The notes under the pieces are model-generated. The model did no database searches. It saw only the letters and a list, made by a program, of their open reading frames with translations, and was not told where the DNA came from. Below are positions 1-62,174 of a DNA stretch of 64,000 bases, piece by piece. This DNA is from Escherichia phage AV126. Positions within the stretch are counted from its first letter, which is position 1, and every line of letters begins with the position of its first letter. The translations under genes were made by a program, and so were the position numbers. The stretch lies in the sequence record OR352956.1; one strand, given 5' to 3'.

Positions 1-165
1 AGAGGAAACAAAATGAATACATCTAATCGCGCAGAAAAAATTCAATCTTCCAAGATCCGCAAGGCCTGGAACGAGGAAGTGATCCGCAAAGGCGACAAGC
101 GTAATAAAACAAAGCGCGGGAAGAGTGACAAATATAATTGGATGGATTTAGAGGATTAACATAAC

Positions 166-195
166 AAGGGCGCACCAAGCGCCCTTTCTTTTTAC
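166..195 (+). terminator. rho-independent terminator (GGGCGCACCAAGCGCCC hairpin plus T-run)
   Basis: GC hairpin followed by TTTCTTTTT directly upstream of next gene. Confidence 0.6.
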
Positions 196-214
196 ATGTA
201 GAGGATAAACAAAA

Positions 215-400
215 ATGACTTTAAACGAGCTTAAAACAGCGTACAGCGCAACATTAAAAATAGCCGTGCGTTACCGTGACGAATACGGTTTTATTGCGCA
301 GGGCGTGATCCTGGGCTTTTCTGACGATGGTTTGATCTATGTTGATGCACATTATAACAAGGTTAAACCGGAAAACGTTATTAGCATAAAATATCTTTAA
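215..400 (+). CDS. hypothetical protein (61 aa)
   Basis: ORF with GAGGA SD-like motif upstream; flanked by terminator and next promoter. Confidence 0.5.
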   Translation: MTLNELKTAYSATLKIAVRYRDEYGFIAQGVILGFSDDGLIYVDAHYNKVKPENVISIKYL

Positions 401-485
401 AAACGGTTGACACCATAACCGGACCTGTTAAACTGTATTACATCAGGCGGGGAATAGTTCCCCACCATACAAAAAGGTAAATATT

Positions 486-692
486 ATGATCACCGCAAAA
501 CAAGAAAAAATCATTATCGACGTTGCAGCCGTTGCCGCTATCGCTATTATTGGATCTTATTATGATACCCGTTTCCCGTCGGCTATGCATGAGGTCGCCG
601 CCGTTGCATCAGTTGGCGTACTGTTTTACGTTGGTAAACGCTATTTATCACCAATGATTAACAAGCTGACACCGTGGAAAAATAAAGGTTGA
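486..692 (+). CDS. hypothetical small hydrophobic protein (68 aa)
   Basis: ORF preceded by promoter-like TTGACA and leader hairpin; hydrophobic N-terminal half. Confidence 0.5.
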   Translation: MITAKQEKIIIDVAAVAAIAIIGSYYDTRFPSAMHEVAAVASVGVLFYVGKRYLSPMINKLTPWKNKG

Positions 693-763
693 TCCTGTTT
701 TACATTGTGTTATAGTTATCGTGTAGGGCGGCAATGGTGCCGCGCCCCTTTGAGGATGCAATC

Positions 764-1048
764 ATGAGTAAAGCTAACACCGTGCTAATGTTTTCCCTGA
801 TTAATGATCTCGCTTACTTGTCCAACATGACGCAGGAGGGTAACACATTAACGGCAACATTCACCAATAAGCTTGACCGAGTGATCATCGTCTCACTGAA
901 AACAGTTAGTAAAGGCTTTTACTCGTTAGCTTATCATTGTATCACTGACACCGACGAGACAAGCCAGGACTATAGCGCCCCTTTCCCTGAATCAATGGCA
1001 CGGGAGATCATCGCCGCCGTTGTAAATGATGGTTTGTTTACTGCATAA
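764..1048 (+). CDS. hypothetical protein
   Basis: ORF 734..1048 trimmed to internal ATG at 764, which lies after the leader hairpin and a GAGGA motif. Confidence 0.45.
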   Translation: MSKANTVLMFSLINDLAYLSNMTQEGNTLTATFTNKLDRVIIVSLKTVSKGFYSLAYHCITDTDETSQDYSAPFPESMAREIIAAVVNDGLFTA

Positions 1049-1145
1049 ATAATTTAGAAAAAGGCTTGCAATCATTTTGAGATAGTGTATATTTAATTCA
1101 TAGGGCGGCGGGAATAGTTCCCAAAGCAAACGAGAGGATTACACG

Positions 1146-1265
1146 ATGAGCAAGTACACAGTAGAATACACGGTAGAGAATCCGGCAGTATCCGAAGGTA
1201 AAAAGATGACATTTGCCATCAGTATAATCGCTTTCGTTGTCACTATCTTATCAATCATCTTATAA
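1146..1265 (+). CDS. hypothetical small membrane peptide (39 aa)
   Basis: short ORF with GAGAGGA SD-like motif and hydrophobic C-terminus; below the ORF-track size cutoff. Confidence 0.35.
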   Translation: MSKYTVEYTVENPAVSEGKKMTFAISIIAFVVTILSIIL

Positions 1266-1275
1266 GGTACACACC

Positions 1276-1437
1276 ATGAAAATAGCAGACATTATCAAAG
1301 AGATCGCCCTTGCCACTGGTATCGAGATCGAGGAAGTGATCGCGCTCAATCTTACAGAAAACGATTTGCGCAACTATGAAGCGGAAAGCGTGAAAGCAAG
1401 TGGCGCGGTCCTGGCATATAATCCGGCTAACAAATAG
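1276..1437 (+). CDS. hypothetical protein
   Basis: ORF 1237..1437 trimmed to first ATG (the track start is TTG). Confidence 0.4.
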   Translation: MKIADIIKEIALATGIEIEEVIALNLTENDLRNYEAESVKASGAVLAYNPANK

Positions 1438-1438
1438 T

Positions 1439-1466
1439 TTGACAAGCTGAATCAACCTGATAAGAT
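1439..1466 (+). promoter_or_regulatory. sigma70-like promoter (TTGACA - 16 nt - TAAGAT)
   Basis: consensus -35 and near-consensus -10 upstream of leader hairpin and gene 1518. Confidence 0.55.
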
Positions 1467-1517
1467 GTATGACATAGGGGCGACAAGCGCCCCGCCTAAC
1501 AGAAGAGAGAAAAAATC

Positions 1518-1796
1518 ATGACCATCACCAAATTATCTACCGAAGAGATCACCAACATTCTGACTACTAATCTGCAAGATTGGAAGCGTGAAGCCGATTT
1601 GCAAGCGGTTTGCAAGCTGAATGTAGAGTTAACAGAAAGCGACATTGACGCCATTATTAACCCTGATTTCTATGATGCTATTCATGATGATTCTATTATC
1701 CTTGAAACACTATTAGATAATACTTGGATCAATCCCGATTTGGCAGCTTATGACCGTAGCGCCTTTATCACTATCCACAATATCTATAACCGTTAA
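1518..1796 (+). CDS. hypothetical protein (92 aa)
   Basis: ORF with AGAGAGA SD-like motif; own promoter and leader hairpin. Confidence 0.55.
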   Translation: MTITKLSTEEITNILTTNLQDWKREADLQAVCKLNVELTESDIDAIINPDFYDAIHDDSIILETLLDNTWINPDLAAYDRSAFITIHNIYNR

Positions 1797-1918
1797 GGGG
1801 CGTAGCATGAATCCGAGAGATATGCAATCATGGAAAGGGTGCGACGATCTAAGCGCCTTGCGCAATAAGTCAAGCCGTAACCTTAGACGGTTGGAAGCAA
1901 AGAAAAAGAAAAAATAGT

Positions 1919-1946
1919 TTGACAAGTCGGCTTAGTCTGGTAATAT
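1919..1946 (+). promoter_or_regulatory. sigma70-like promoter (TTGACA - 16 nt - TAATAT)
   Basis: consensus -35/-10 followed by GTAGGGCGGCAATGGTGCCGC leader hairpin. Confidence 0.55.
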
Positions 1947-1995
1947 GTATCTTGTAGGGCGGCAATGGTGCCGCTCACAAGAAGAGAGAAAAATC

Positions 1996-2280
1996 ATGGA
2001 AATCACAAAAAGCCTAACTAATTATGCAGCACGTCGCGGATTATGTTTAACCGTTGAAAACTTAGGGAAAGAAGACTTTTTGTGTTTTTGGGAGCTTGAA
2101 AATGATTGCGAGTGGATGTTTTCCTATTCTATCTGCGAAGATCAAAACGGTTGTTTGTTAACCTGGCGCGGTAATATCTATTTACCGGAAGAAATTAAAG
2201 AAGAGTTACCAGGTACAATCATGACAGAGAGACAGCTTAAGGAAGTGATCAATTTTGTAGGGCAAAACATTAAAAAATAA
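1996..2280 (+). CDS. hypothetical protein
   Basis: ORF 1945..2280 trimmed to ATG at 1996 after leader hairpin and SD-like motif. Confidence 0.5.
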   Translation: MEITKSLTNYAARRGLCLTVENLGKEDFLCFWELENDCEWMFSYSICEDQNGCLLTWRGNIYLPEEIKEELPGTIMTERQLKEVINFVGQNIKK

Positions 2281-2281
2281 T

Positions 2282-2310
2282 TTGACAGCACGCAAACAAC
2301 GTAGTAAAGT
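2282..2310 (+). promoter_or_regulatory. sigma70-like promoter (TTGACA - 17 nt - TAAAGT)
   Basis: consensus -35, 17 nt spacer, -10-like hexamer, followed by leader hairpin. Confidence 0.55.
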
Positions 2311-2365
2311 TTACCACATAGGGCGGCGGAATGGTCCACCGCTCACAACAGAAGAGAAACAAATC

Positions 2366-2536
2366 ATGATCCCGACTATGTTTTATGTATCGCGCAAAGG
2401 TCACAATATTTTTTGGTCTGAAGATTTAAATGAAGCCATGACGTTTGCCCGTGATCGTGTTGCTATCGGTGGCGTTAACATCACCGTAACCGATGAAAAT
2501 GGCATTGAATACTATAACGGCGACGATGAAGAGTAA
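2366..2536 (+). CDS. hypothetical protein
   Basis: ORF 2282..2536 trimmed to ATG at 2366 downstream of promoter, hairpin and SD-like motif. Confidence 0.5.
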   Translation: MIPTMFYVSRKGHNIFWSEDLNEAMTFARDRVAIGGVNITVTDENGIEYYNGDDEE

Positions 2537-2602
2537 TTAATAAGGCGGGGAATACTTCCCGCCACGCAGTGAATTTTCCGTTTGGGAAGTAAAAAATAAA
2601 TC

Positions 2603-2630
2603 TTGACGATAATTTGTTATCTGATAGAAT
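2603..2630 (+). promoter_or_regulatory. sigma70-like promoter (TTGACG - 16 nt - TAGAAT)
   Basis: near-consensus hexamers followed by leader hairpin. Confidence 0.5.
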
Positions 2631-2682
2631 GTATTTCGTAGGGCGGGGCAATAAGGCAACGCCCATTAATGAGGGTAGAATC

Positions 2683-2787
2683 ATGTTAGAGAAAATTTTC
2701 ACGGTTGCAGTAGTTGGCCTGGCGTTATCGGTTGGAGTGGTTGCAACTATGGCTAATATGATCCTATCTTCCCACGGTATCGGCTAA
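2683..2787 (+). CDS. hypothetical hydrophobic peptide (34 aa)
   Basis: short ORF with GAGGG SD-like motif directly after promoter and hairpin. Confidence 0.3.
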   Translation: MLEKIFTVAVVGLALSVGVVATMANMILSSHGIG

Positions 2788-2797
2788 GGTGAAACAA

Positions 2798-3013
2798 ATG
2801 ATCACGAATAAGACAGGTAAAACGGAATTTTTACGCGGCTTGCAAGTTGGTAAACCTGAGATCTGGCATTGTACTAAATCCGCGCATAATGAAATGAAAG
2901 ATTTTACCGCTACTTTACAACGTGTTAAAATATCTATCACACAGAAAAAAGCCTTGTTAGTAGTAGAAAACGAGATCCCGCAAACTATTATTATTGTCGA
3001 GCGTACAGCATGA
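2798..3013 (+). CDS. hypothetical protein
   Basis: ORF 2789..3013 (GTG) trimmed to ATG at 2798; AAGGTG SD-like motif. Confidence 0.45.
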   Translation: MITNKTGKTEFLRGLQVGKPEIWHCTKSAHNEMKDFTATLQRVKISITQKKALLVVENEIPQTIIIVERTA

Positions 3014-3396
3014 AAACAGAAATCATTATTGAAATCATCAACGGTTATAAAGAAGCCTTTATTTTTGCTGAATCAGCAAGGGATCATGAAGGTAATTTTA
3101 TTGAAAACTTAGACGATTATGATTTTTCTCCTAGCGCGGACGAACGGATCGCCCAGGATGTAACAGCCTTTATTAATGCTAATCTTGCCGCTATCTCTGA
3201 GGCAATGAGCGACGGCGCAACAGCCAACCAGATCGGGAATGATTTACATTTTACCCGTAACGGTCACGGCGTAGGCTTTTGGGATCGCCCTGAAATATAC
3301 ACCACTAACACGGCGAACCGCCTAACCAATGCAGCTAAGTTTATGCCGAACGTGTCGGCTTACATTGGTGAAGATAATTTGATTTATATTGAATAA
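3010..3396 (+). CDS. hypothetical acidic protein (128 aa)
   Basis: ORF whose ATG overlaps the upstream stop (ATGA coupling). Confidence 0.55.
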   Translation: MKTEIIIEIINGYKEAFIFAESARDHEGNFIENLDDYDFSPSADERIAQDVTAFINANLAAISEAMSDGATANQIGNDLHFTRNGHGVGFWDRPEIYTTNTANRLTNAAKFMPNVSAYIGEDNLIYIE

Positions 3397-3402
3397 AAAG
3401 TA

Positions 3403-3430
3403 TTGACACAGATCGCCAGTGTGCTAATAT
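3403..3430 (+). promoter_or_regulatory. sigma70-like promoter (TTGACA - 16 nt - TAATAT)
   Basis: consensus hexamers followed by leader hairpin GGGCGGCAATGGTGCCGCC. Confidence 0.55.
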
Positions 3431-3477
3431 TTACCACGTAGGGCGGCAATGGTGCCGCCGATAATGAGGAAAGTAAA

Positions 3478-3777
3478 ATGGAAACTATCGCTATTGTTAC
3501 CGTAGAAAAACTGGTTGTTGGTGATGTATTCGCGTTAATGGTGCCTAACAGCAGCAAGCTGGGCGCTTATGAAGTAATGGATCATAAAAATGAATCATTT
3601 GGCGACGGTTGCACAATGGCGGTAAAATCTTTAAAGGATGGAATCATCCGCCAGGCTAACTGGCACAAAGGGAATCAAGTCGGTTTAATATCAGCTAATT
3701 TCTTGCCAGAAGAGCAAACGTTAGACCAACTATCAGGCGGTAAGACGTTAGCCGAACTACTGGAAACAGCGATCTAA
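3478..3777 (+). CDS. hypothetical protein (99 aa)
   Basis: ORF with SD-like motif after promoter and leader hairpin. Confidence 0.55.
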   Translation: METIAIVTVEKLVVGDVFALMVPNSSKLGAYEVMDHKNESFGDGCTMAVKSLKDGIIRQANWHKGNQVGLISANFLPEEQTLDQLSGGKTLAELLETAI

Positions 3778-3821
3778 TCAACAAAGGGGCGGCAACGCCC
3801 CACATCAGAAAGGAAAAGATT

Positions 3822-4058
3822 ATGAGTATTGCAACAGTATTAAACGCCGTTAAAACCGCTGAATCATCCGGCTTGCATGTTGAGCTTATAGATCAACCAG
3901 GTGGCGATCTCCTTGTCCAGGTTTACCCGCCGAAAGTAGGGGATGATTATTATTGGGCTTATTCTGATACGTTCGAACAAGTAGACACGAAAGCGATCAC
4001 GGCTTTTATTTTAAAAGCTATTGAAGAAAATAACTTTCATCATAACATCAATCAATAA
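3822..4058 (+). CDS. hypothetical protein (78 aa)
   Basis: ORF with AGGAAA SD-like motif; preceded by GGGGCGGCAACGCCCC hairpin. Confidence 0.5.
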   Translation: MSIATVLNAVKTAESSGLHVELIDQPGGDLLVQVYPPKVGDDYYWAYSDTFEQVDTKAITAFILKAIEENNFHHNINQ

Positions 4059-4112
4059 ACCATAAGCGGGGCGGTAACGCCCCATTAAACGCAATAGGAA
4101 GAGGATAGACGC

Positions 4113-4403
4113 ATGAAAAAGATGATCGCAGTAGTTGCCCTGGTTGTTGGTATTAACGCGCCTGTACTGGCTAATGAGTTGCCAGAATCCATCACGCTAA
4201 CCGATATCAACGCAATAAACCGGATCGGCGTTAATTATCGCCTATGCCTTGCCGCTAAAACTTTCCAGGACGGCACGACAGAATACCACGGATTCGAGGG
4301 TATCCGCTGCGGTGAGCTTGCACGCGACCTTAAGGAAGATCCAGACCTTGAGGCCATACCGATGACCGTAAACGGTAAAGCTTACGTAAACCGCCAACAA
4401 TGA
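4113..4403 (+). CDS. hypothetical secreted protein (N-terminal signal peptide)
   Basis: MKKMIAVVALVVGINAPVLA hydrophobic leader with Ala-x-Ala-like cleavage context. Confidence 0.5.
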   Translation: MKKMIAVVALVVGINAPVLANELPESITLTDINAINRIGVNYRLCLAAKTFQDGTTEYHGFEGIRCGELARDLKEDPDLEAIPMTVNGKAYVNRQQ

Positions 4404-4534
4404 GAAAGATAATCATCACAATGGGGATCGTAGTAGCAACGCTGGCGCTTATCCCCTTCATGGTTGAACATGTGCTGATCAGTGTTGTCCTTGTAGTCAG
4501 TGACCTATTGGAAACGGTTGGCAACTGGTTTTAA
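4400..4534 (+). CDS. hypothetical small membrane peptide (44 aa)
   Basis: short hydrophobic ORF, ATGA-coupled to the upstream gene. Confidence 0.35.
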   Translation: MRKIIITMGIVVATLALIPFMVEHVLISVVLVVSDLLETVGNWF

Positions 4535-4787
4535 GATAAATAAACAGGGCTTGTTTTTGTCCTGTTTTTTGTTATACTTATTGAACGGGCGGCACTTGGG
4601 AGCAGGTGAAGATAATCACCGGAAGATCCCGCTATATATCGATAGCTAATACCTATCAAACAACAAAACATCAAAGAGATAAACTATCAAATCTTTACAA
4701 TCCTACCTATTGACACCGGATCACGCTTACATTATTATTTATCACGTAGGGCGAGCAATACAGCAAGCCCACAAAGAGGAAAAGAAG

Positions 4788-5156
4788 ATGAGCAAATCAG
4801 CAATTAAAGCAGTTGAAAAAGCGCAAGAAGTGATCGCAACGTCAACCACTGGCGCAAAGGTTAATCTCGTTGGTTATCTGACAGATGAAGCTATCCGTAA
4901 AAATTGGCGTAATGCTGATTTACTGGCTTGCTTATTGATTAATAGTGTCGCTAATGCTTTCCAGTGTGAAACAGCCGAGAGCCTGGAGGAAAACTTGTTT
5001 GATAATATGGATCAAGCCATTGAAACCTATATACAATCAAACCTGGATAGCTGGAACAGTAAGACATGGCCTGACAGCTTACGCGATACAACTGATCAAC
5101 TGATCCGCCTTGCCCTGATGGTTGAACGCGATAACGTTCACAACCGCACAAAGTAA
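4788..5156 (+). CDS. hypothetical protein
   Basis: ORF 4710..5156 trimmed to ATG at 4788 after promoter, hairpin and AGAGGA motif. Confidence 0.5.
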   Translation: MSKSAIKAVEKAQEVIATSTTGAKVNLVGYLTDEAIRKNWRNADLLACLLINSVANAFQCETAESLEENLFDNMDQAIETYIQSNLDSWNSKTWPDSLRDTTDQLIRLALMVERDNVHNRTK

Positions 5157-5296
5157 GATTATACAAGGGGCGCACTAAGCGCCCTTTAACGTAAAGAAAT
5201 GTAAATAATGCGCTATCCCCTATTGACAGGGGATCGGCGTTATATTATATTTAACTCACTGGCAGCAAACAACGAAACGAAACAAAGGACAACACC

Positions 5297-5716
5297 ATGA
5301 ACATTAAATCAAATAATCCAGCTTACTCCTTCGATAACGCTTTTTGTCACGGTAGCGCCGCCAAAGGCTTCGAAATCGATGGTAAATTGGTTATCGTGAA
5401 CGTTGACGGGGAAGAGGTTGCAGTGTATCCGGTAAACGATGTTAAAAGCCGTTTACAATGCCGCATGGATGTTACCGCATATCAGCTTGATCCGGTCCGT
5501 GTAGTTGCCCTGGTATTAGAGGAAGAGATCAAAGCAATGCATCACAGTAATAAGTTTATTGGTGACGCGCAGGATAATATGAACGTTTGCCGCCATAAAG
5601 TTAATGAAGCATTGAAAGAATATGGTTTTAAGGATCTGATGATCAAACGTGATGAAAAATTCCGCTTTCGTAATGACCTGGCAAACCGGATCTACTCAAT
5701 CTATGAAGCGTTATAA
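5297..5716 (+). CDS. hypothetical protein (139 aa)
   Basis: ORF with AAGGA SD-like motif; followed by terminator. Confidence 0.55.
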   Translation: MNIKSNNPAYSFDNAFCHGSAAKGFEIDGKLVIVNVDGEEVAVYPVNDVKSRLQCRMDVTAYQLDPVRVVALVLEEEIKAMHHSNKFIGDAQDNMNVCRHKVNEALKEYGFKDLMIKRDEKFRFRNDLANRIYSIYEAL

Positions 5717-5730
5717 TCGACAACAAAACA

Positions 5731-5759
5731 AGGGGCGCACCAAGCGCCCTTTCTTTTTG
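5731..5759 (+). terminator. rho-independent terminator (same hairpin as at 166-195)
   Basis: GGGGCGCACCAAGCGCCC hairpin plus TTTCTTTTT. Confidence 0.6.
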
Positions 5760-6299
5760 CCTGAACAATGTTGATAGCTTTCGCCTATGAAAAACCGACA
5801 CAGAACAAAACTGAATAAATCGCGGTATCGAGCTAATCAACCATCAAACGAATAACCATACATCCCAGGGCAACAGGCTGTTAGAGAGCTATTTAGAGCG
5901 GTTAAAATCGATCTACAACCAACAACAAACCATCAAAAACACCCTTTTACCTCCTTTCTAGTGCAATGATAACCATTATCATCTACCCATGATTATCTAT
6001 GCAATATAAGCGCATAATTATAATGTTGATAATAGTTCGCAACAACTAACCAACAAACAACATAAAACAATAAGCAAACTAATCATAATCAAAGGAATAA
6101 TAGCAAGATGATTGATAACGACAAACAATCAAACCATGATGAATACTAAGCAAGATAACGATAACACGACAAAACAACCAACTAACGAACAATAACAAAC
6201 GAAACCATTAAAAGATCAACTATTAGCAAAATAGTGTCTATTGCCATAATAGTGACTGAATGAAATCATTACAAAACGAATCATTCCAAGGATCATCAT

Positions 6300-6460
6300 T
6301 AGCACGCTACGCCGGACACGTAGCGAGCTAATAATAAGCCAACTACACCCCAACAATCATAACCATCGGTGACGGTTATTTCTTGTTACTGCGTAGCTTG
6401 CAATAATTGCAAGCGTAATGACGCTTACACTTATTGCGCTGGCTTATTATTAGCATTATA
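6300..6460. repeat. nested inverted-repeat cluster in non-coding region
   Basis: 15-bp inverted repeat GCTAATAATAAGCCA (6327-6341) / TGGCTTATTATTAGC (6440-6454) enclosing palindrome CTTGCAATAATTGCAAG and hairpin CGCTACG-CCGGACA-CGTAGCG. Confidence 0.6.
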
Positions 6461-7275
6461 TGTAATTACCAAGATCATAACATTAGCGCAATAACAATAA
6501 TCATTACAATAATTACATAAGGAAACAATTAGCATAGCAATAATTATGGGGGCAATGGGAGGATGATTATCATCATTCCGATACATTGCACACTATGCAC
6601 ATAATAAGATAAAAAGCAATAATCTTGGGGGCGAAATGTTACCGCCACAGGCGGGAATGTTGAGCATCTTCTCTTAAACGTAAATAAAATCAGAAAATTC
6701 TTGATTTATTTTAGTTTTTATGTTAATAAACGTTTAAATAATAATCATTCTCATATAAATAATAGTCTGCTTGTCATGAGCGGGATTAGTTGACATTGTT
6801 CCGTCATATGATGAAGTTGCCAAGCCATTGATAAATAAGTGTTTGTGTGATTTATAATCAAGTGGCCCACCTTGTCGCTACGTTGGCATGAGCCTTGCAT
6901 AAGTCATTGAATACGAATGATAATTATTCTCATTCGCATGATATTTGGGAATTGTCGCTGCGTGGACCTGACGGCCCGAAAATTCGCGTTAAGCACTTCT
7001 TACGTATGCGCCATGATTTTTGCCATATCATATTGATTCTATTAGATATTCTTGCCATGATTGCCATGAAACAGGGTGTCCCGAAATAATCTCTCCCCGT
7101 AGATATTTTGGGTTACTTTTTATACAAGAGTGGGGTGTCAAAAATAATCGGTATATATGGGATAATTGATAGGAATCCCCTATGATAATTCGATTGTAAT
7201 TCCCTAAGATTGATCGTATGATGTTGGTGATTGATGATTGCCATGAAAGATGGCTAACGATGAGAGGAGATTATC

Positions 7276-7644
7276 ATGCAAGAGAGTAAAAATATTCCGT
7301 TGAGCAGTGCAGCATTGATTCAATTCTACAAAGCATGGATGGCTGATCACTACAGCATGGATCGCACGGAGAATGGACTGTGTTTATGTATTCATCATTT
7401 TGTGCGATCTCATCTTATGAAAGATGTGGAGAATCCCCGATGGTATGCCGACATAATAGATAGCTTGTTGTTTGAGATGCGTGCTCAGTTCAAAGACGCT
7501 GGCATTGATACGTGCGCACCCTTCAACACTGGATATGCGGATTACTTGATTGAAGTGGAAGATAAAATGTGTCACCTGAATCCACTTCGCATTCAGTGGG
7601 TGAAAGATCGCATTGAAGATGCAAATAATGCTTGCATTGAATAA
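7276..7644 (+). CDS. hypothetical protein, paralog family A (copy 1 of 5)
   Basis: GAGAGGAGA SD; shares the GLC...YPF...WVKDR pattern with the ORFs at 10714, 14040, 17338 and 18643. Confidence 0.6.
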   Translation: MQESKNIPLSSAALIQFYKAWMADHYSMDRTENGLCLCIHHFVRSHLMKDVENPRWYADIIDSLLFEMRAQFKDAGIDTCAPFNTGYADYLIEVEDKMCHLNPLRIQWVKDRIEDANNACIE

Positions 7645-60248: not shown

Positions 60249-60323
60249 GGCCCTGTAGCTCAATGGGAGAGCTGTCGGCTCATAACCGATAGGTAGCTGG
60301 ATCGAAACCAGCCAGGGCCACCA
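60249..60323 (+). tRNA. tRNA with CAT anticodon (Met or lysidine-Ile2 type)
   Basis: cloverleaf folded by eye: acceptor GGCCCTG/CAGGGCC, anticodon loop CTCATAA, T-arm GCTGG-ATCGAAA-CCAGC, CCA encoded. Confidence 0.7.
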
Positions 60324-60325
60324 AC

Positions 60326-60400
60326 GTCTTTATGGTGTAATGGATAGCACAGGAGTCTTCTAAACTCTTAGTCAAGGTTCGATTCCTTGTAAAGACACCA
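60326..60400 (+). tRNA. tRNA-Arg (TCT)
   Basis: acceptor GTCTTTA/TAAAGAC, anticodon loop CTTCTAA, T-loop TTCGATT, CCA encoded. Confidence 0.7.
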
Positions 60401-60645
60401 GAACATTTTAACATGAATTAGCTCAAGTGATTTGAACCCACTACTGATCATGGTGGCAGAGAATGAGGCAAGTATGTCAGACATTATAAACAAAGGCCAC
60501 GGTTATATTAGAAGACATAAATGCTCGAAGAGCACCGTTCGTGGAGAACGGGGGTTGGTGGAGTCACCATTCATGGTAAAATGTTTTAAAAAACTATTGA
60601 CAACAAACATTATTTTATGTTAGATTATAAGTATGGAAGGGCAAA

Positions 60646-60727
60646 TCGACGTGGCGACGAAAACGGTCTTGAAAACCGCCGAGCTTGAAAGAGCCTTGGG
60701 AGTTCGACTCTCCCTCCTTCAGCCAGA
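60646..60727 (+). tRNA. tRNA-like element, possibly degenerate tRNA-Ser (TGA)
   Basis: canonical T-arm GGGAG-TTCGACT-CTCCC and candidate anticodon loop CTTGAAA, but imperfect acceptor and D arms; promoter-like TTGACA at 60597. Confidence 0.3.
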
Positions 60728-60729
60728 TT

Positions 60730-60815
60730 AGGTAGATTGGTGAAATGGTAGCCACGACAGTTTGCTAAACTGTAGTCGGAAACGGCGTGTAGGTTCGAGT
60801 CCTACATCTACCGCC
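60730..60815 (+). tRNA. tRNA-Ser (GCT)
   Basis: acceptor GGTAGAT/ATCTACC, anticodon loop TTGCTAA, long variable arm, G discriminator, CCA encoded. Confidence 0.7.
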
Positions 60816-60946
60816 AAGTTCTTTTTAATGTAGCTTACTTTAGCAGAGTAAATCTTCGGCAAGTGGCGGTAACCACTTTACCGATAACTCATAGTTAGTG
60901 GTGCGAACACTGGCTATTTTAAAAAGAATTTAAATATTAGTATTTA

Positions 60947-61034
60947 GGTGAGTTAATTCCGTAGGGGTAGCGGGGCAGACTGTAAATCTGTTATCATTGC
61001 GATTCGGGTGGTTCGACTCCATCACTCACCACCA
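60947..61034 (+). tRNA. tRNA-Tyr (GTA)
   Basis: acceptor GGTGAGT/ACTCACC, anticodon loop CTGTAAA, long variable arm, T-loop TTCGACT. Confidence 0.7.
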
Positions 61035-61040
61035 AATTAA

Positions 61041-61126
61041 GATGAGTTGGCTGAATGGTTTAAGCGGCGGACTGTTAATCCGTGTTCGAAAGAACAATAT
61101 AGGTTCGAATCCTATACTCATCGCCA
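61041..61126 (+). tRNA. type-II (long variable arm) tRNA with GTT (Asn) anticodon
   Basis: perfect acceptor GATGAGT/ACTCATC, Ser-like D arm, anticodon arm GCGGA-CTGTTAA-TCCGT, variable hairpin GTTC-GAAA-GAAC, T-arm ATAGG-TTCGAAT-CCTAT, G discriminator. Confidence 0.55.
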
Positions 61127-61133
61127 GAATTAT

Positions 61134-61211
61134 GGACTTGTAGAGTTAAGGTAAACCCCCCAGTCGCCAATAGGCTTCTGGAATTGCAGGTATCGAATCC
61201 TGCCGAGTCCC
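61134..61211 (+). ncRNA. tRNA-like element, unresolved
   Basis: 7-bp acceptor-like pairing GGACTTG/CGAGTCC and T-arm-like GCAGG...CCTGC but no canonical anticodon arm found by eye. Confidence 0.25.
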
Positions 61212-61217
61212 AGCATT

Positions 61218-61292
61218 GCTCCTATAGTATAATGGCTATTACAACGGTTTTGTAATCCGTGGATCTCTGTTCGATTCAGTGTGGGAGCACCA
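61218..61292 (+). tRNA. tRNA-Thr (TGT)
   Basis: acceptor GCTCCTA/TGGGAGC, anticodon loop TTTGTAA (one mismatch in anticodon stem), CCA encoded. Confidence 0.55.
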
Positions 61293-61565
61293 ACACAACA
61301 TTAAGAGCACTGTGATTGATCGTCGTATCCTGTGCACAAGGTCTGCTCGAAAGACAGTGTTCTTAGTATTGTGTTGATCACAAAAAGAGTCACCCGAAAC
61401 TTGACCGGAGTAGGGTTGGATGGGGAAAAATGAGAAGCGGCTCTCCCATTGACAGCAACGAAGAATAATATTTGACTTTGGTTTTGTATTATTTTAAGTT
61501 AGCTTACCGAACGTAGGGCTAGTCACCCAACGGGATACTCGTCACTGTCCCAATCAATAAAAGTC

Positions 61566-61595
61566 TTGACAACAAATAGTAAAATGTAGTATAGT
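61566..61595 (+). promoter_or_regulatory. sigma70-like promoter (TTGACA - 18 nt - TATAGT) driving the downstream tRNA group
   Basis: consensus -35 and near-consensus -10 about 11 nt upstream of tRNA-Gly. Confidence 0.6.
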
Positions 61596-61606
61596 AAATA
61601 TATAGG

Positions 61607-61680
61607 GCGTTCTTGGTGTAGCGGTAGCATTCCGTCCTTCCAAGTCGGCGGCACGAGTTCGATCCTCGTAGAACGCTCCA
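61607..61680 (+). tRNA. tRNA-Gly (TCC)
   Basis: acceptor GCGTTCT/AGAACGC, anticodon loop CTTCCAA, U discriminator, CCA encoded. Confidence 0.65.
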
Positions 61681-61778
61681 AATTATTTAATAAAGGGTTG
61701 CCAGAAAACTTTCTCTTTTACTCATGGTTTTCTCCTTCTCTCACACTTCTTCTGGTTGCCCTTCATTAAATGATTTAT

Positions 61779-61854
61779 TGGTTTGTAGTGTAGTCCGGTA
61801 GCACACGACACTTTGACTGTCGTAGGTTTGGTTCAAATCCAGACAGACCAGCCA
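61779..61854 (+). tRNA. tRNA-Gln (TTG)
   Basis: acceptor TGGTTTG/CAGACCA with U1-A72, anticodon stem CGACA/TGTCG, loop CTTTGAC, G discriminator. Confidence 0.7.
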
Positions 61855-61859
61855 TATAA

Positions 61860-61936
61860 CGGAATTTAGCTCAGTTTGGTAGAGCATACGCTTTGGGAGC
61901 GTAGGGTCGCAGGTTCGAATCCTGCAATTCCGACCA
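61860..61936 (+). tRNA. tRNA-Pro (TGG)
   Basis: acceptor CGGAATT/AATTCCG, D arm GCTC-AGTTTGGTA-GAGC, anticodon loop TTTGGGA, T-loop TTCGAAT. Confidence 0.75.
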
Positions 61937-61942
61937 ATTTAA

Positions 61943-62016
61943 TGTTTCGTAGTTCAATGGTAGAACCCACGACTGATAATCGTGAGACACAAGTTCGATT
62001 CTTGTCGAAACAACCA
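61943..62016 (+). tRNA. tRNA-Ile (GAT)
   Basis: acceptor TGTTTCG/CGAAACA, anticodon stem CACGA/TCGTG, loop CTGATAA, T-loop TTCGATT. Confidence 0.75.
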
Positions 62017-62018
62017 GT

Positions 62019-62091
62019 TTCCCGTTAGACTTACAGGATAAGAGTTCCACAGCTTATTGTGATGCTGGTTCGAATCCAGCACGGGATACCC
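62019..62091 (+). ncRNA. tRNA-like element, anticodon unresolved
   Basis: canonical T-arm GCTGG-TTCGAAT-CCAGC and acceptor-like TTCCCGT/ACGGGAT, but D and anticodon arms could not be folded by eye. Confidence 0.3.
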
Positions 62092-62094
62092 AAT

Positions 62095-62174
62095 AGCGGG
62101 ATAGAGGAGTCTGGTCGTCCTCGCCAGTTTCATATGCTGGAGATCATCGGTTCGAATCCGATTCCCGCCTCCAA
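62095..62174 (+). tRNA. tRNA-Met (CAT), 1:72 mismatch
   Basis: acceptor AGCGGGA/TCCCGCC with unpaired A1/C72, anticodon stem CCAGT/GCTGG, loop TTCATAT, T-loop TTCGAAT. Confidence 0.6.

What the first reader, a model, noticed from the sequence alone, without database searches (positions are those of the whole stretch)
440..4770. Conserved GC-rich 5'-leader hairpin family downstream of every promoter in the left 5.8 kb
At least ten genes in 1-5.8 kb are each preceded by a TTGACA/-10 promoter and then by a GTAGGGCGG...CCGCCC-type hairpin a few nucleotides downstream (e.g. 725-745, 1957-1974, 2322-2343, 2640-2662, 3439-3457, 3785-3800, 4071-4086, 4744-4766). Three copies share the identical GGGCGGCAATGGTGCCGC core. 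A recurring leader structure like this could be an mRNA-stabilising 5' stem-loop, a processing site, or the binding site of a phage regulator, and it marks this block as a distinct regulatory class.
Basis: seen in the sequence. Interest (0 to 1): 0.5.

Follow-up and report, generated by a model that had tools for sequence, protein, structure and literature searches.

The report
Early-promoter plus leader-hairpin cassettes
The left 5 kb of this phAPEC8-like coliphage carries a repeated expression cassette (host-type promoter followed by a G/C-rich hairpin at the predicted start of the mRNA) that probably stabilises early messages and also serves as a crossover point for swapping small genes; it is real, but a variant of known things.

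Summary
The window is a Phapecoctavirus (phAPEC8-like E. coli myovirus). Nine near-consensus sigma-70 promoters in 0.4-4.8 kb are each followed, 3-4 nt (10 nt in one decayed copy) after the predicted start, by a G-rich/C-rich hairpin. The claim "every promoter" fails: promoter 5223 has no hairpin, and hairpins 3786 and 4068 (plus 2544) have no promoter.

The family is far beyond chance. It is confined to the early small-gene block and recurs in four genera of two subfamilies. It has 32 distinct stems whose two arms match copy by copy. Identical orthologous genes carry different, still self-complementary, hairpin tops.

The hairpins lack U-tracts, so they are not terminators, and they match no Rfam family. 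GenBank records call them either "PHIRE promoters" or "terminators".

Gene gains and losses between relatives have crossovers inside the cassette. This matches the logic of the PeSL cassettes of T4-type phages, except that here the stem-loop lies in the transcribed leader.

Best reading: a modular early-expression cassette whose 5'-terminal stem-loop protects mRNA from 5'-end-dependent decay (inferred), and which doubles as recombination homology (shown by comparison). It is a new variant of a known kind, of moderate interest.

The parts
407..466 (+). Cassette 1: -35 at 407-412, -10 at 429-434, predicted +1 at 442, hairpin 446-466 (GGCGGGGAAUAGUUCCCCACC). It heads gene 486-692.
   Evidence: (z -4.27)
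689..747 (+). Cassette 2: weaker -35 TTGATC at 689-694, -10 at 711-716, predicted +1 at 723, hairpin 726-747 containing the 18-mer core. It heads gene 764-1048.
   Evidence: (z -1.07, weak against GC-rich shuffles)
1066..1122 (+). Cassette 3, decayed: -35 TTGCAA, -10 at 1088-1093. AUAGGGCGGCGG is kept but its 3' partner is lost. Only the short hairpin 1110-1122 remains, 10 nt from the predicted +1. It heads gene 1146-1265.
   Evidence: (z -1.26)
1439..1493 (+). Cassette 4: -35 at 1439-1444, -10 at 1461-1466, predicted +1 at 1474, hairpin 1477-1493 (GGGGCGACAAGCGCCCC). It heads gene 1518-1796.
   Evidence: (z -3.16)
1919..1976 (+). Cassette 5: -35 at 1919-1924, -10 at 1941-1946, predicted +1 at 1954, hairpin 1957-1976 (GGGCGGCAAUGGUGCCGCUC, with one G.U pair). 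It heads gene 1996-2280.
   Evidence: (z -4.29)
2282..2344 (+). Cassette 6: -35 at 2282-2287, -10 at 2305-2310, predicted +1 at 2318, hairpin 2321-2344. It heads gene 2366-2536. The hairpin top differs in three relatives that encode a 98-100% identical protein.
   Evidence: (z -3.66)
2603..2664 (+). Cassette 7: -35 TTGACG at 2603-2608, -10 at 2625-2630, predicted +1 at 2638, hairpin 2641-2664. It heads gene 2683-2787. phAPEC8 has lost this promoter but kept the hairpin.
   Evidence: (z -4.04)
3403..3459 (+). Cassette 8: -35 at 3403-3408, -10 at 3425-3430, predicted +1 at 3438, hairpin 3442-3459 (18-mer core). It heads gene 3478-3777. Bases 3424-3458 are the crossover zone of a one-gene indel seen against dw-ec, SKA64 and KKP_3264.
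   Evidence: (z -2.84)
4710..4770 (+). Cassette 9: -35 at 4710-4715, -10 at 4733-4738, predicted +1 at 4746, interrupted hairpin 4749-4770. It heads gene 4788-5156. Bases 4732-4753 are the crossover zone of a one-gene indel: the window has promoter A joined to hairpin B of ESCO25.
   Evidence: (z -4.87)
5223..5296 (+). Strong promoter (11/12) with an unstructured A/C-rich leader, heading gene 5297-5716. It is the in-block exception without a hairpin.
   Evidence: MFE 0, z +0.9
2544..2563 (+). Promoterless intergenic hairpin GGCGGGGAAUACUUCCCGCC, directly after the stop codon of gene 2366-2536. It is the junction of several indels.
   Evidence: (z -3.55)
3786..3801 (+). Promoterless intercistronic hairpin GGGGCG-GCAA-CGCCCC (GNRA loop), 20 nt before start codon 3822. 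No U-tract follows.
   Evidence: (z -5.39)
4068..4083 (+). Promoterless intercistronic hairpin GGGGCG-GUAA-CGCCCC (GNRA loop) before gene 4113-4403. It recombined with hairpin 3786 in phage KKP_3264, deleting gene 3822-4058.
   Evidence: (z -2.89)
166..196 (+). Canonical intrinsic terminator (GC hairpin plus 6 T in the next 10 nt), listed for contrast with the leader hairpins. Similar terminators lie at 4542-4577 and 5730-5762.

Best explanation
**What it is.** The element is a modular early-expression cassette of about 100 nt, read left to right as follows:
- an A-rich UP-like stretch;
- a near-consensus -35;
- a 16-17 nt spacer, usually with TGn;
- the -10;
- a 7-8 nt A/T-rich discriminator ending in a pyrimidine;
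- a purine start followed by UA;
- a G-run/loop/C-run hairpin of 17-24 nt;
- an A-rich unstructured spacer of 16-24 nt that contains the Shine-Dalgarno sequence;
- the ATG.

**How it most likely works.**
- Host sigma-70 RNA polymerase transcribes each small early gene from its own cassette immediately after infection.
- The hairpin is therefore the 5'-terminal stem-loop of the mRNA.
[quoted passage not shown] That should hinder RppH and the 5'-end sensor of RNase E, and so lengthen the life of the early messages.
- Promoterless copies between cistrons would do the same for processed downstream fragments, or block 3' exonucleases for the upstream cistron.

**Second role.** Because the cassette is repeated about 20-25 times in tandem orientation, it also provides homology for recombination. 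That recombination inserts, deletes and swaps single genes while always regenerating a functional chimeric cassette.

**Shown here:**
- the anatomy;
- restriction to the early block;
- conservation of pairing with varied sequence;
- absence of U-tracts;
- crossovers inside the cassette.

**Inferred, not shown:**
- the transcription start;
- action at the RNA level;
- the stabilising effect.
For: - **Position.** The hairpin starts 3-4 nt after the predicted +1 in 8 of 9 window copies. The -1/+1 pair is Y/R in 9 of 9. TSS-to-ATG is 40-48 nt and hairpin-end-to-ATG is 16-24 nt. Across 52 cassettes in six phages, the modal first paired nucleotide is +4.
- **Specificity.** In four Stephanstirmvirinae early blocks, 44 of 68 strong promoters carry a hairpin of -9 kcal/mol or better in the first 40 nt. 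Elsewhere the count is 6 of 99 (Fisher p = 1.4e-16).
- **Hairpins without a T tail.** GC hairpins lacking a T tail occur only in the left block of the window. GC hairpins elsewhere are mostly A-run/T-run terminators.
- **Structure rather than sequence.** There are 32 distinct hairpins. Pair counts are G-C 152, A-U 53, C-G 40, G.U 13 and U-A 1.
- **Matched arms.** Native 5' and 3' arm pairs fold at -12.8 kcal/mol. Arms swapped between copies give -9.1 +/- 0.45, and 0 of 2000 permutations reach the native value.
- **Orthologous comparison.** The same orthologous intergenic region is 95% identical across four phages. It differs almost only in the hairpin top: CGGAAUGGUCCA, GAAAUGGUUUC or CAAUAGUG, each self-complementary.
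- **Wider conservation.** The same layout, with other stems, occurs in Justusliebigvirus, Vequintavirus and Seunavirus.
- **Not terminators.** The 10 nt after the leader hairpins contain 0-4 T. The phage's real terminators have 6.
- **Recombination.** Eleven distinct indel events were found against nine relatives, and 15 of 22 ends lie in cassettes or hairpins. Crossovers fall in shared motifs of 22, 35, 19 and 7 nt.
- **Precedent.** RNase E cleaves RNAs with an accessible 5'-P end far faster than RNAs with a base-paired 5' end (review PMC3997798). That review's reference list cites Emory 1992 and Bouvet & Belasco 1992 (titles); their findings that 5'-terminal stem-loops stabilise E. coli mRNAs are quoted here from my own knowledge.
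Against: - No transcription-start, half-life or structure-probing data exist for this phage group in the literature searched. The +1 is only predicted, and a shift of 2 nt upstream would give 5-6 unpaired nt.
- Three unpaired nucleotides is at the margin of what RppH can use (my recollection for E. coli RppH; one search gives this figure for the B. subtilis enzyme).
- The 5' arm (RUAGGGCGG) is much more conserved than the 3' arm, and changes occur mainly in the 3' arm. This suggests an additional sequence-specific constraint that a pure structural role does not explain.
- All five 1x1 mismatches are C.A. These would be G.U on the antisense strand, so the strand evidence (13 G.U against 5 C.A) is only moderate.
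- Several in-block promoters lack the hairpin: 5223 in the window, 4 of 19 in ESCO25, and about half in alia and KKP_3264. The hairpin is therefore dispensable.
- Conservation of pairing could partly reflect copying of whole hairpins between cassettes by gene conversion, rather than independent compensatory mutation.
Confidence: 0.5

Rival explanations
1. Transcription-level role. The G-rich initial transcribed sequence (+4 to +9, GGGCGG) and the nascent hairpin help RNA polymerase leave very strong, escape-limited consensus promoters. A strong early RNA:DNA hybrid would reduce abortive release. A hairpin forming behind the polymerase would block backtracking or promoter-proximal sigma-dependent pausing.
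For: - The 5' arm RUAGGGCGG is far more conserved than the 3' arm, and the element is anchored to the -10 at fixed distance.
- The promoters combine a UP-like A-tract, a consensus -35 and often an extended -10, the kind expected to be escape-limited (expectation from my own knowledge).
- In alia and KKP_3264 one cassette keeps GUAGGGC but has no hairpin.
Against: - Promoterless copies of the hairpin (2544, 3786, 4068) cannot act on initiation.
- In Vequintavirinae the 5' sequence differs (AAGGCGGG, AAGGGGCA, ACGGGGAG) while the hairpin persists.
- The arm-matching result shows that pairing itself is maintained.
Confidence: 0.13
2. Recognition site for a dedicated factor. A phage or host protein binds the RUAGGGCGG hairpin, either in the RNA or in the DNA as an operator overlapping +1. 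Candidates are an early-mRNA-specific endoribonuclease, a translational or transcriptional repressor, or an antiterminator. Binding would switch the whole early class off or on together.
For: - A class-specific motif is shared by most early leaders and is absent from later promoters.
- The 5' arm sequence is conserved and an AAU is frequent at the 5' side of the loop.
- An inverted repeat overlapping +1 to +25 is a classic operator position (my own knowledge).
Against: - The apical stem and loop vary freely, including at orthologous positions. Stems are entirely different in Vequintavirinae. This fits poorly with a sequence-specific dimeric DNA binder.
- No candidate regulator was identified. 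The one annotated 'transcriptional regulator' in the block (SKA64) is absent from the window.
- Not every early promoter has the element.
Confidence: 0.12
3. PeSL-type terminator, attenuator or insulator. The stem-loops stop or damp read-through from upstream cassettes, so that each small gene is expressed mainly from its own promoter. This was shown for the stem-loops of PeSLs in RB49 and phi1.
For: - The same intergenic setting, the same Gn-loop-Cn composition and the same association with ORFan blocks as PeSLs, whose stem-loop reduced lacZ expression like a strong terminator.
- ASO2A annotators' software called these hairpins rho-independent terminators.
- The promoterless intercistronic copies sit just after stop codons.
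Against: - The hairpin lies downstream of its own promoter, so a terminator there would also abort that promoter's transcripts at about +25.
- There is no U-tract: 0-4 T in the next 10 nt, against 6 at the phage's real terminators.
- In PeSLs the stem-loop lies upstream of or inside the promoter.
Confidence: 0.08
4. No RNA function. The repeats are kept similar only by concerted evolution (gene conversion and unequal crossing-over among tandem cassettes). The hairpin is a passenger, or it matters only as DNA homology or secondary structure that promotes recombination and gene shuffling.
For: - Crossovers fall inside the motif in at least four independent events.
- Orthologous genes carry hairpin tops that are common elsewhere in the same genome, which looks like patch conversion.
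- Identical 18-mers occur in three copies.
Against: - Pure homogenisation does not explain why 32 different variants all remain self-complementary.
- It does not explain why the G-rich arm always comes first on the coding strand.
- It does not explain why the hairpin keeps a fixed distance from the -10 across two subfamilies with different stem sequences.
Confidence: 0.08

Closest known systems
PeSL (promoter-early stem-loop) cassettes of T4-type phages RB49/phi1, T4/PST and KVP40/nt-1 (Arbiol et al. 2010, PMC2839356; Comeau et al. 2014, PMC4122927)
   Same: - A repeated intergenic composite of an AT-rich upstream stretch, a strong sigma-70-like early promoter and a Gn-loop-Cn stem-loop, ending at the Shine-Dalgarno sequence and start codon.
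- Concentration in blocks of small ORFan genes.
- Indels and gene replacements between close relatives with crossovers inside the motif.
- Degraded half-elements (hairpin only, or promoter only) near indels.
   Different: - A different phage lineage (Stephanstirmvirinae and Vequintavirinae, not T4-type), with no detectable sequence relation.
- The stem-loop is downstream of the -10, in the transcribed leader at about +4 to +25. In PeSLs it lies upstream of, between or overlapping the promoter hexamers.
- There is no U-tract, so the terminator role shown for PeSLs is unlikely here.
- Mini-circle formation was not tested.
5'-terminal stabilising stem-loops of E. coli mRNAs (ompA, papA; Emory, Bouvet & Belasco 1992) and the 5' stem-loop of the phage T7 gene 10 leader
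   Same: A stable hairpin within a few nucleotides of the (predicted) 5' end, followed by an unstructured leader and ribosome-binding site. The stem sequence is free to vary as long as it pairs.
   Different: - Those are single, experimentally verified elements.
- Here it is a family of about 9 copies per window and about 20-25 per genome, with a conserved 5' arm (RUAGGGCGG).
- The 5' end is only predicted and no half-life data exist.
Intrinsic (rho-independent) terminators
   Same: A G/C-rich hairpin of 6-10 bp in an intergenic region. Annotation software has called these hairpins terminators.
   Different: No U-tract follows. The hairpins sit directly downstream of a promoter. The same genome uses canonical A-run/hairpin/T-run terminators elsewhere.
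Early sigma-70/UP-element promoters described for Vequintavirinae (rV5: PMC3606486; Certrevirus CB7/CR3: PMC7344957)
   Same: The same promoter type, likewise concentrated in the region of short hypothetical early ORFs.
   Different: A term search of those two papers found promoter descriptions but no mention of a hairpin downstream of the -10 or of cassette-mediated gene exchange.

Membership tests
PeSL cassettes (T4-type phages) | Repeated intergenic motif containing a strong sigma-70-like early promoter with an AT-rich upstream region | tested here: met
   Nine copies in the window and about 18 in ESCO25, with TTGACA-N16/17-TAnnnT and A-rich upstream stretches
PeSL cassettes (T4-type phages) | Adjacent stable stem-loop, typically G-run/loop/C-run | tested here: met
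   32 distinct hairpins, mostly with the G-rich arm first, -9 to -16 kcal/mol
PeSL cassettes (T4-type phages) | Stem-loop placed upstream of or within the promoter, acting as terminator of upstream transcription | tested here: not met
   The hairpin starts 10-12 nt downstream of the -10, at predicted +4. Only 0-4 T occur in the next 10 nt. PeSL positions are given.
PeSL cassettes (T4-type phages) | Concentrated in hyperplastic regions rich in small ORFans | tested here: met
   Confined to the block of small hypothetical genes; none in window 5.8-64 kb
PeSL cassettes (T4-type phages) | Indels and replacements between close relatives with crossovers inside the motif | tested here: met
   Eleven events; 15 of 22 ends lie in cassettes or hairpins; shared junction motifs of 22, 35, 19 and 7 nt
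PeSL cassettes (T4-type phages) | Formation of excised mini-circles | not testable with these tools
   Needs inverse PCR on infected cells or virion DNA
PeSL cassettes (T4-type phages) | Occurs in T4-type myoviruses | tested here: not met
   The window is about 96% identical to Phapecoctavirus (Stephanstirmvirinae) genomes
5'-terminal mRNA-stabilising stem-loop (ompA/papA/T7 g10 type) | Hairpin within fewer than about 5 unpaired nt of the true 5' end | tested here: inconclusive
   3-4 nt in 8 of 9 copies, but measured from a predicted +1 (purine 7-8 nt after the -10, pyrimidine at -1). No experimental TSS is available.
5'-terminal mRNA-stabilising stem-loop (ompA/papA/T7 g10 type) | Structure, not sequence, is what is maintained | tested here: met
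   Arm-swap permutation 0 of 2000; three different self-complementary tops at one orthologous site
5'-terminal mRNA-stabilising stem-loop (ompA/papA/T7 g10 type) | Lengthens mRNA half-life by blocking RppH / RNase E 5'-end-dependent decay | not testable with these tools
   Needs rifampicin chase of wild-type, mutant and compensatory leaders in wild-type, rppH and rne backgrounds
Intrinsic terminator | G/C-rich hairpin immediately followed by a U-tract | tested here: not met
   T count in the next 10 nt is 0, 0, 0, 0, 1, 1, 2, 3 and 4 for the nine leader hairpins, against 6 for terminators 166, 4542 and 5730
Any curated RNA family (Rfam 15) | Covariance-model match | tested here: not met
   Only two chance-level hits (E about 0.9, far below gathering score) in 1-7500
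Phage-specific promoter (as annotated by PHIRE in phAPEC8) | Conserved motif located upstream of the start site and used by a phage-directed polymerase | tested here: not met
   The PHIRE 20-mers (L001 556-575, 937-956, 1787-1806, 3202-3221) correspond to the +1/hairpin segment itself (confirmed for 556-575 and 3202-3221; offsets vary by up to ~6 nt for the other two). They lie downstream of complete sigma-70 promoters. PHIRE only detects repeated 20-mers.
Lambda-type nut site (boxA + boxB) | boxA consensus 5' of a GNRA-like boxB hairpin, plus an N-type antiterminator | not tested
   Considered only. The leader loops are not GNRA-like, and each gene has its own promoter.

The most novel reading that the evidence does not exclude
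The conserved RUAGGGCGG hairpin is not just a passive 5' cap of structure. It would be the address label of a dedicated system: either (a) a phage or host RNA-binding factor or nuclease that recognises all early leaders and times their shut-off or processing together, or (b) a recombination system that acts on the cassettes to excise and capture single-gene mini-circles. Either would make this block a purpose-built gene-shuffling array in a lineage unrelated to T4.
Probability: 0.12. Interest if true: 0.7.

Novelty: new variant of a known kind. Interest (0 to 1): 0.4.

Why it matters
- **Unified reading of the annotation.** The same ~20-nt elements are currently labelled "phage promoter" in one GenBank record and "terminator" in another. 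Some hairpin loops contain an AUG that gene callers use as a false start.
- **PeSL idea extended.** Portable promoter/stem-loop cassettes that drive modular exchange of small early genes would also occur in a second, unrelated group of large coliphages used in phage therapy. Here the stem-loop is in the mRNA leader rather than acting as a terminator.
- **Practical value.** The cassettes mark the immediate-early, host-takeover gene set. [quoted passage not shown] They are compact natural promoter-leader parts that could be tested as expression modules.

Tried and rejected
- **Rfam** scan of 1-7500 at E <= 1: nothing meaningful.
- **Terminator reading:** rejected because there is no U-tract and the hairpin lies downstream of its own promoter.
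- **PHIRE "phage promoter" reading:** rejected on position.
- **The eighth TAGGGCG at 61603:** it overlaps the start of tRNA-Gly downstream of a promoter, so it is not a family member.
- **tRNA-like or RNase P minihelix idea:** prompted by that coincidence; not pursued, as nothing supports it.
- **MAFFT alignment of the hairpins (A1):** not structurally consistent on the 3' side because stem lengths differ. I therefore did not build a covariance model or use the count of structure pairs. I used an alignment-free arm-swap permutation instead.
- **Flanks of the early block:** I tested whether the two ORF-free flanks in ESCO25 are repeats of each other. No similarity was found.
- **Tandem-repeat scan of the 5.7-7.3 kb ORF-free region:** only trivial short repeats.
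- **Literature searches** for transcriptomes or a prior description of leader hairpins in rV5-, phi92- or phAPEC8-like phages: nothing found. The phAPEC8 genome announcement is not held.
- **IMG/VR pattern scan:** clustered multi-copy hits occur only on contigs of about 97-153 kb (~150 kb is the size of these phages). Single promoter + RTAGGGCGG + hairpin hits on other contigs could not be interpreted.
- **Gap in coverage:** I did not scan the remaining ~68 kb of a complete relative genome. "Confined to the early block" rests on the 64-kb window plus 39 kb of ESCO25.

Full report
**Identity of the window.** Bases 1-6000 are 94-97% identical to Phapecoctavirus genomes: phAPEC8, phAPEC8_ev052, ESCO25, Mt1B1_P17 and others. 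These are ~150-kb E. coli myoviruses of the subfamily Stephanstirmvirinae. The region 1-5.76 kb is a block of about 19 small + strand genes, all annotated as hypothetical in relatives. An ORF-free stretch of ~1.3 kb follows it.

**Check of the observation.**
- The promoter scan finds the best sigma-70-type sites of the first 8 kb on the + strand at 407, 1439, 1919, 2282, 2603, 3403, 4710 and 5223 (10-11 of 12 matches). Weaker sites lie at 689 and 1066 (9 of 12).
- Aligned on the hexamers, nine of these ten share a layout. It consists of an A-rich upstream stretch, the -35, a 16-17 nt spacer that often ends in TGn, and the -10. Then come 6-7 A/T-rich bases ending in a pyrimidine, a purine, then UA(G)GGCGG-type sequence and its complement.
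- The hairpins are at 446-466, 726-747, 1110-1122, 1477-1493, 1957-1976, 2321-2344, 2641-2664, 3442-3459 and 4749-4770.
- Seven of the nine fold better than dinucleotide shuffles (z -2.8 to -4.9). Copies 689 and 1066 do not stand out (z about -1.1 and -1.3), and 1066 has visibly lost its 3' arm.
- TAGGGCG occurs 8 times against 2.1 expected, and no shuffle reaches 8. The eighth copy overlaps the start of tRNA-Gly at 61607.
The strong promoter at 5223 has a completely unstructured leader. The hairpins at 3786-3801 and 4068-4083, and another at 2544-2563, have no promoter and sit between cistrons.

**More than chance, and class-specific.**
- I predicted +1 as the purine nearest 7 nt after the -10 and folded the first 40 nt. 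In the window's block, 7 of 8 strong promoters have a hairpin of -9 kcal/mol or better. Elsewhere in the 64 kb, 5 of 49 promoter-like sites do.
- Over the early blocks of the window, ESCO25, alia and KKP_3264 the counts are 44 of 68 against 6 of 99 (p = 1.4e-16).
- The first paired nucleotide is most often +4.
- Perfect GC-rich hairpins occur at 1.7 per kb in the block against 0.29 per kb in the rest. Those outside are mostly ordinary A-run/T-run terminators.

**Anatomy.**
- In the window, -1/+1 is pyrimidine/purine in 9 of 9 copies.
- The predicted 5' overhang is 3-4 nt in 8 of 9 copies.
- TSS-to-ATG is 40-48 nt and hairpin-end-to-ATG is 16-24 nt.
- The 10 nt after the hairpin hold 0-4 T, against 6 T after the phage's real terminators at 166, 4542 and 5730.
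- The element is therefore anchored to the promoter, is transcribed, and is not an intrinsic terminator.
- No Rfam family matches it.

**Relatives.**
- ESCO25 has about 18 promoter-hairpin cassettes in a 9-kb run.
- The layout also occurs in the Justusliebigvirus phages alia and KKP_3264, in Vequintavirus FV3 and in Seunavirus FENT2. In the last two the stems are different: GGCGGGAA...UUCCCGCC, GGGGCAA...UUGCCCC, GGGGAG...CUCCCC and GGCGGGG...CCCCGCC.
- A BLAST search with one cassette finds 145 phage records, essentially all from this group.
- An IMG/VR pattern scan finds clustered copies only on contigs of about 97-153 kb, the ~150-kb ones matching the size of these phages, plus isolated single hits elsewhere.

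**Structure versus sequence.**
- Among 32 distinct hairpins the pairs are G-C 152, A-U 53, C-G 40, G.U 13 and U-A 1. All five single mismatches are C.A.
- Recombining the 5' half of each hairpin with the 3' half of another raises the mean energy from -12.8 to -9.1 +/- 0.45 kcal/mol. None of 2000 permutations reaches the native value. So the arms are matched within each copy.
- The clearest case is the intergenic region before gene 2366-2536. Across the window, ESCO25, alia and KKP_3264 it is 95% identical and the protein is 98-100% identical. The differences are concentrated in the hairpin top: CGGAAUGGUCCA, GAAAUGGUUUC and CAAUAGUG, each self-complementary.
- These tops are common elsewhere in the respective genomes. 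The likely route is therefore patch conversion between cassettes rather than stepwise compensatory mutation. Either way, only paired versions survive.
- The 5' arm (RUAGGGCGG) is clearly more conserved than the 3' arm. This is not explained by structure alone.

**Recombination.**
- I compared the window with nine relatives and found 11 distinct indel or replacement events. Of 22 ends, 15 lie in a cassette or a hairpin.
- Because whole-gene indels must end in intergenic DNA, most of which is cassette, this enrichment is not in itself decisive. The junction sequences are more telling.
- In ESCO25, dw-ec, ECO340P2 and tuntematon an extra gene sits between two cassettes. The window has promoter A joined to hairpin B, with the crossover inside the shared UUAUCACGUAGGGCG (window 4732-4753).
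- A second one-gene indel has its crossover in the identical 35-nt -10-to-hairpin segment (3424-3458).
- KKP_3264 lacks gene 3822-4058 and carries a chimera of the two GNRA hairpins 3786 and 4068.
- In alia against KKP_3264, a replaced module begins exactly at CACGUAGG and ends at the next -35.
- phAPEC8 has lost promoter 2603 but kept its hairpin, which shows how promoterless copies arise.

**Comparison with what is known.**
- The closest described system is the PeSL (promoter-early stem-loop) of T4-type phages. PeSLs are repeated cassettes of an AT-rich stretch, a strong sigma-70 promoter and a Gn-loop-Cn stem-loop. They are concentrated among ORFans and mediate indels, replacements and mini-circles (PMC2839356; PMC4122927).
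- The present cassettes share the composition, the setting and the recombination signature.
- They fail two defining points. The stem-loop lies downstream of the -10, in the leader, whereas in PeSLs it is upstream of or inside the promoter, where it terminates upstream transcription. The phage lineage is also unrelated.
- I therefore treat this as working like a PeSL for genome plasticity, not as a member of that family.
- For the hairpin itself, the nearest functional analogues are the 5'-terminal stem-loops that stabilise ompA and papA mRNAs and the T7 gene 10 leader. That reading rests on Emory 1992 and Bouvet & Belasco 1992, whose titles appear in the reference list of PMC3997798. Their findings and the T7 case are from my own knowledge.
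- Existing annotation is inconsistent. The phAPEC8 record calls four of the hairpins "putative promoter determined with PHIRE". The ASO2A record calls them "rho-independent terminator" directly after its annotated promoters.
- Papers on rV5 and on Certrevirus describe the early sigma-70/UP promoters. A term search of both found no mention of a leader hairpin.

**Mechanism I commit to (confidence about 0.5).**
- Host RNA polymerase starts at the purine before UAGGG.
- The nascent RNA immediately folds into a G/C-rich stem-loop that leaves about 3 nt unpaired.
- This hinders RppH and the 5'-end sensor of RNase E, prolonging the life of immediate-early messages.
- The A-rich spacer keeps the ribosome-binding site open.
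- The whole unit is portable and recombines with its neighbours.
- The rivals are a promoter-escape or anti-pausing role of the G-rich initial transcript (0.13), a binding site for a class-specific regulator or nuclease (0.12), a PeSL-like attenuator (0.08), and a passenger of concerted evolution (0.08).
- The first two rivals would better explain the conserved 5' arm. The promoterless copies and the free variation of the stem argue against them.

**Verdict.**
- The feature is real, statistically solid and conserved.
- The element is best described as a new variant of known kinds: a PeSL-like cassette with the architecture of a 5'-stabiliser leader.
- Interest is moderate.

Noticed in passing
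window 60249-62173: A cluster of 10 tRNA genes (Met, Arg, Ser, Asn, Thr, Gly, Gln, Pro, Ile, Met). A strong promoter at 61566 (TTGACA-18-TATAGT) is followed by AUAUAGG and then tRNA-Gly at 61607. This produces the only TAGGGCG outside the early block.
   Followed up: partly
window 5760-7100: An ORF-free, A-rich stretch of ~1.3 kb (37% A) directly after the early block, with only trivial short repeats. rV5 has a comparable 'non-coding' box. Its function is unknown (origin? packaging site?).
   Followed up: partly
window 734 versus 764; L003 573-887: Many hairpin loops contain AUG (GCAAUGGUGC, GGAAUGGUCC, GAAAUGGUUUC). In ASO2A the gene caller started ASO2A_003 at the loop AUG (window 734), whereas phAPEC8 starts the same gene at 764, behind a proper Shine-Dalgarno sequence. 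This is probably an annotation artefact.
   Followed up: partly
window 3786-3801 and 4068-4083: The two promoterless intercistronic hairpins have the same stem (GGGGCG/CGCCCC) and GNRA tetraloops (GCAA, GUAA). The leader hairpins do not have such loops. This hints at a separate subclass of RNA-level elements.
   Followed up: partly
window 5165-5187: A hairpin with nearly the same stem as terminators 166-186 and 5730-5752, but followed by only TTT and then AACG (1 T in the next 10). It lies between gene 4788-5156 and promoter 5223 and may be a weak or decayed terminator.
   Followed up: no
L002 12270-13545 (ESCO25, upstream of the early block); L005 10778-11045: A second ORF-free region of ~1.3 kb on the other side of the early block contains repeated units of the type ACAAAAGTGAAAGTTGAAAACCAAAATTTAAAGTTTA. 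The alia record annotates 'repeat_region' features in the ORF-free stretch upstream of its own early block (homology to the ESCO25 repeats not checked). It is not similar to the right-hand ORF-free region. Possibly iterons or an origin.
   Followed up: partly
L005 21456 and L006 14908: A cassette that keeps the promoter and CACGUAGGGC but continues with AAAUCAUUUUAAACGG, with no hairpin. It shows that the +1 motif and the hairpin can be uncoupled.
   Followed up: no
L013, L014, L026, L024, L035 (IMG/VR contigs of 9-73 kb): Single occurrences of consensus promoter + RUAGGGCGG + hairpin on contigs of 9-73 kb, a size that does not match ~150-kb phAPEC8-like genomes (their identity was not checked). 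L035 has two adjacent promoter-hairpin units 76 nt apart. It is unclear whether these are chance matches, tRNA starts or the same strategy in other phages.
   Followed up: partly
GenBank JX561091 (L001) versus MZ726793 (L003): The same ~20-nt elements are annotated as 'putative promoter determined with PHIRE' in one record and as 'rho-independent terminator (WebGeSTer)' in another. Both readings conflict with their position just downstream of complete sigma-70 promoters.
   Followed up: yes
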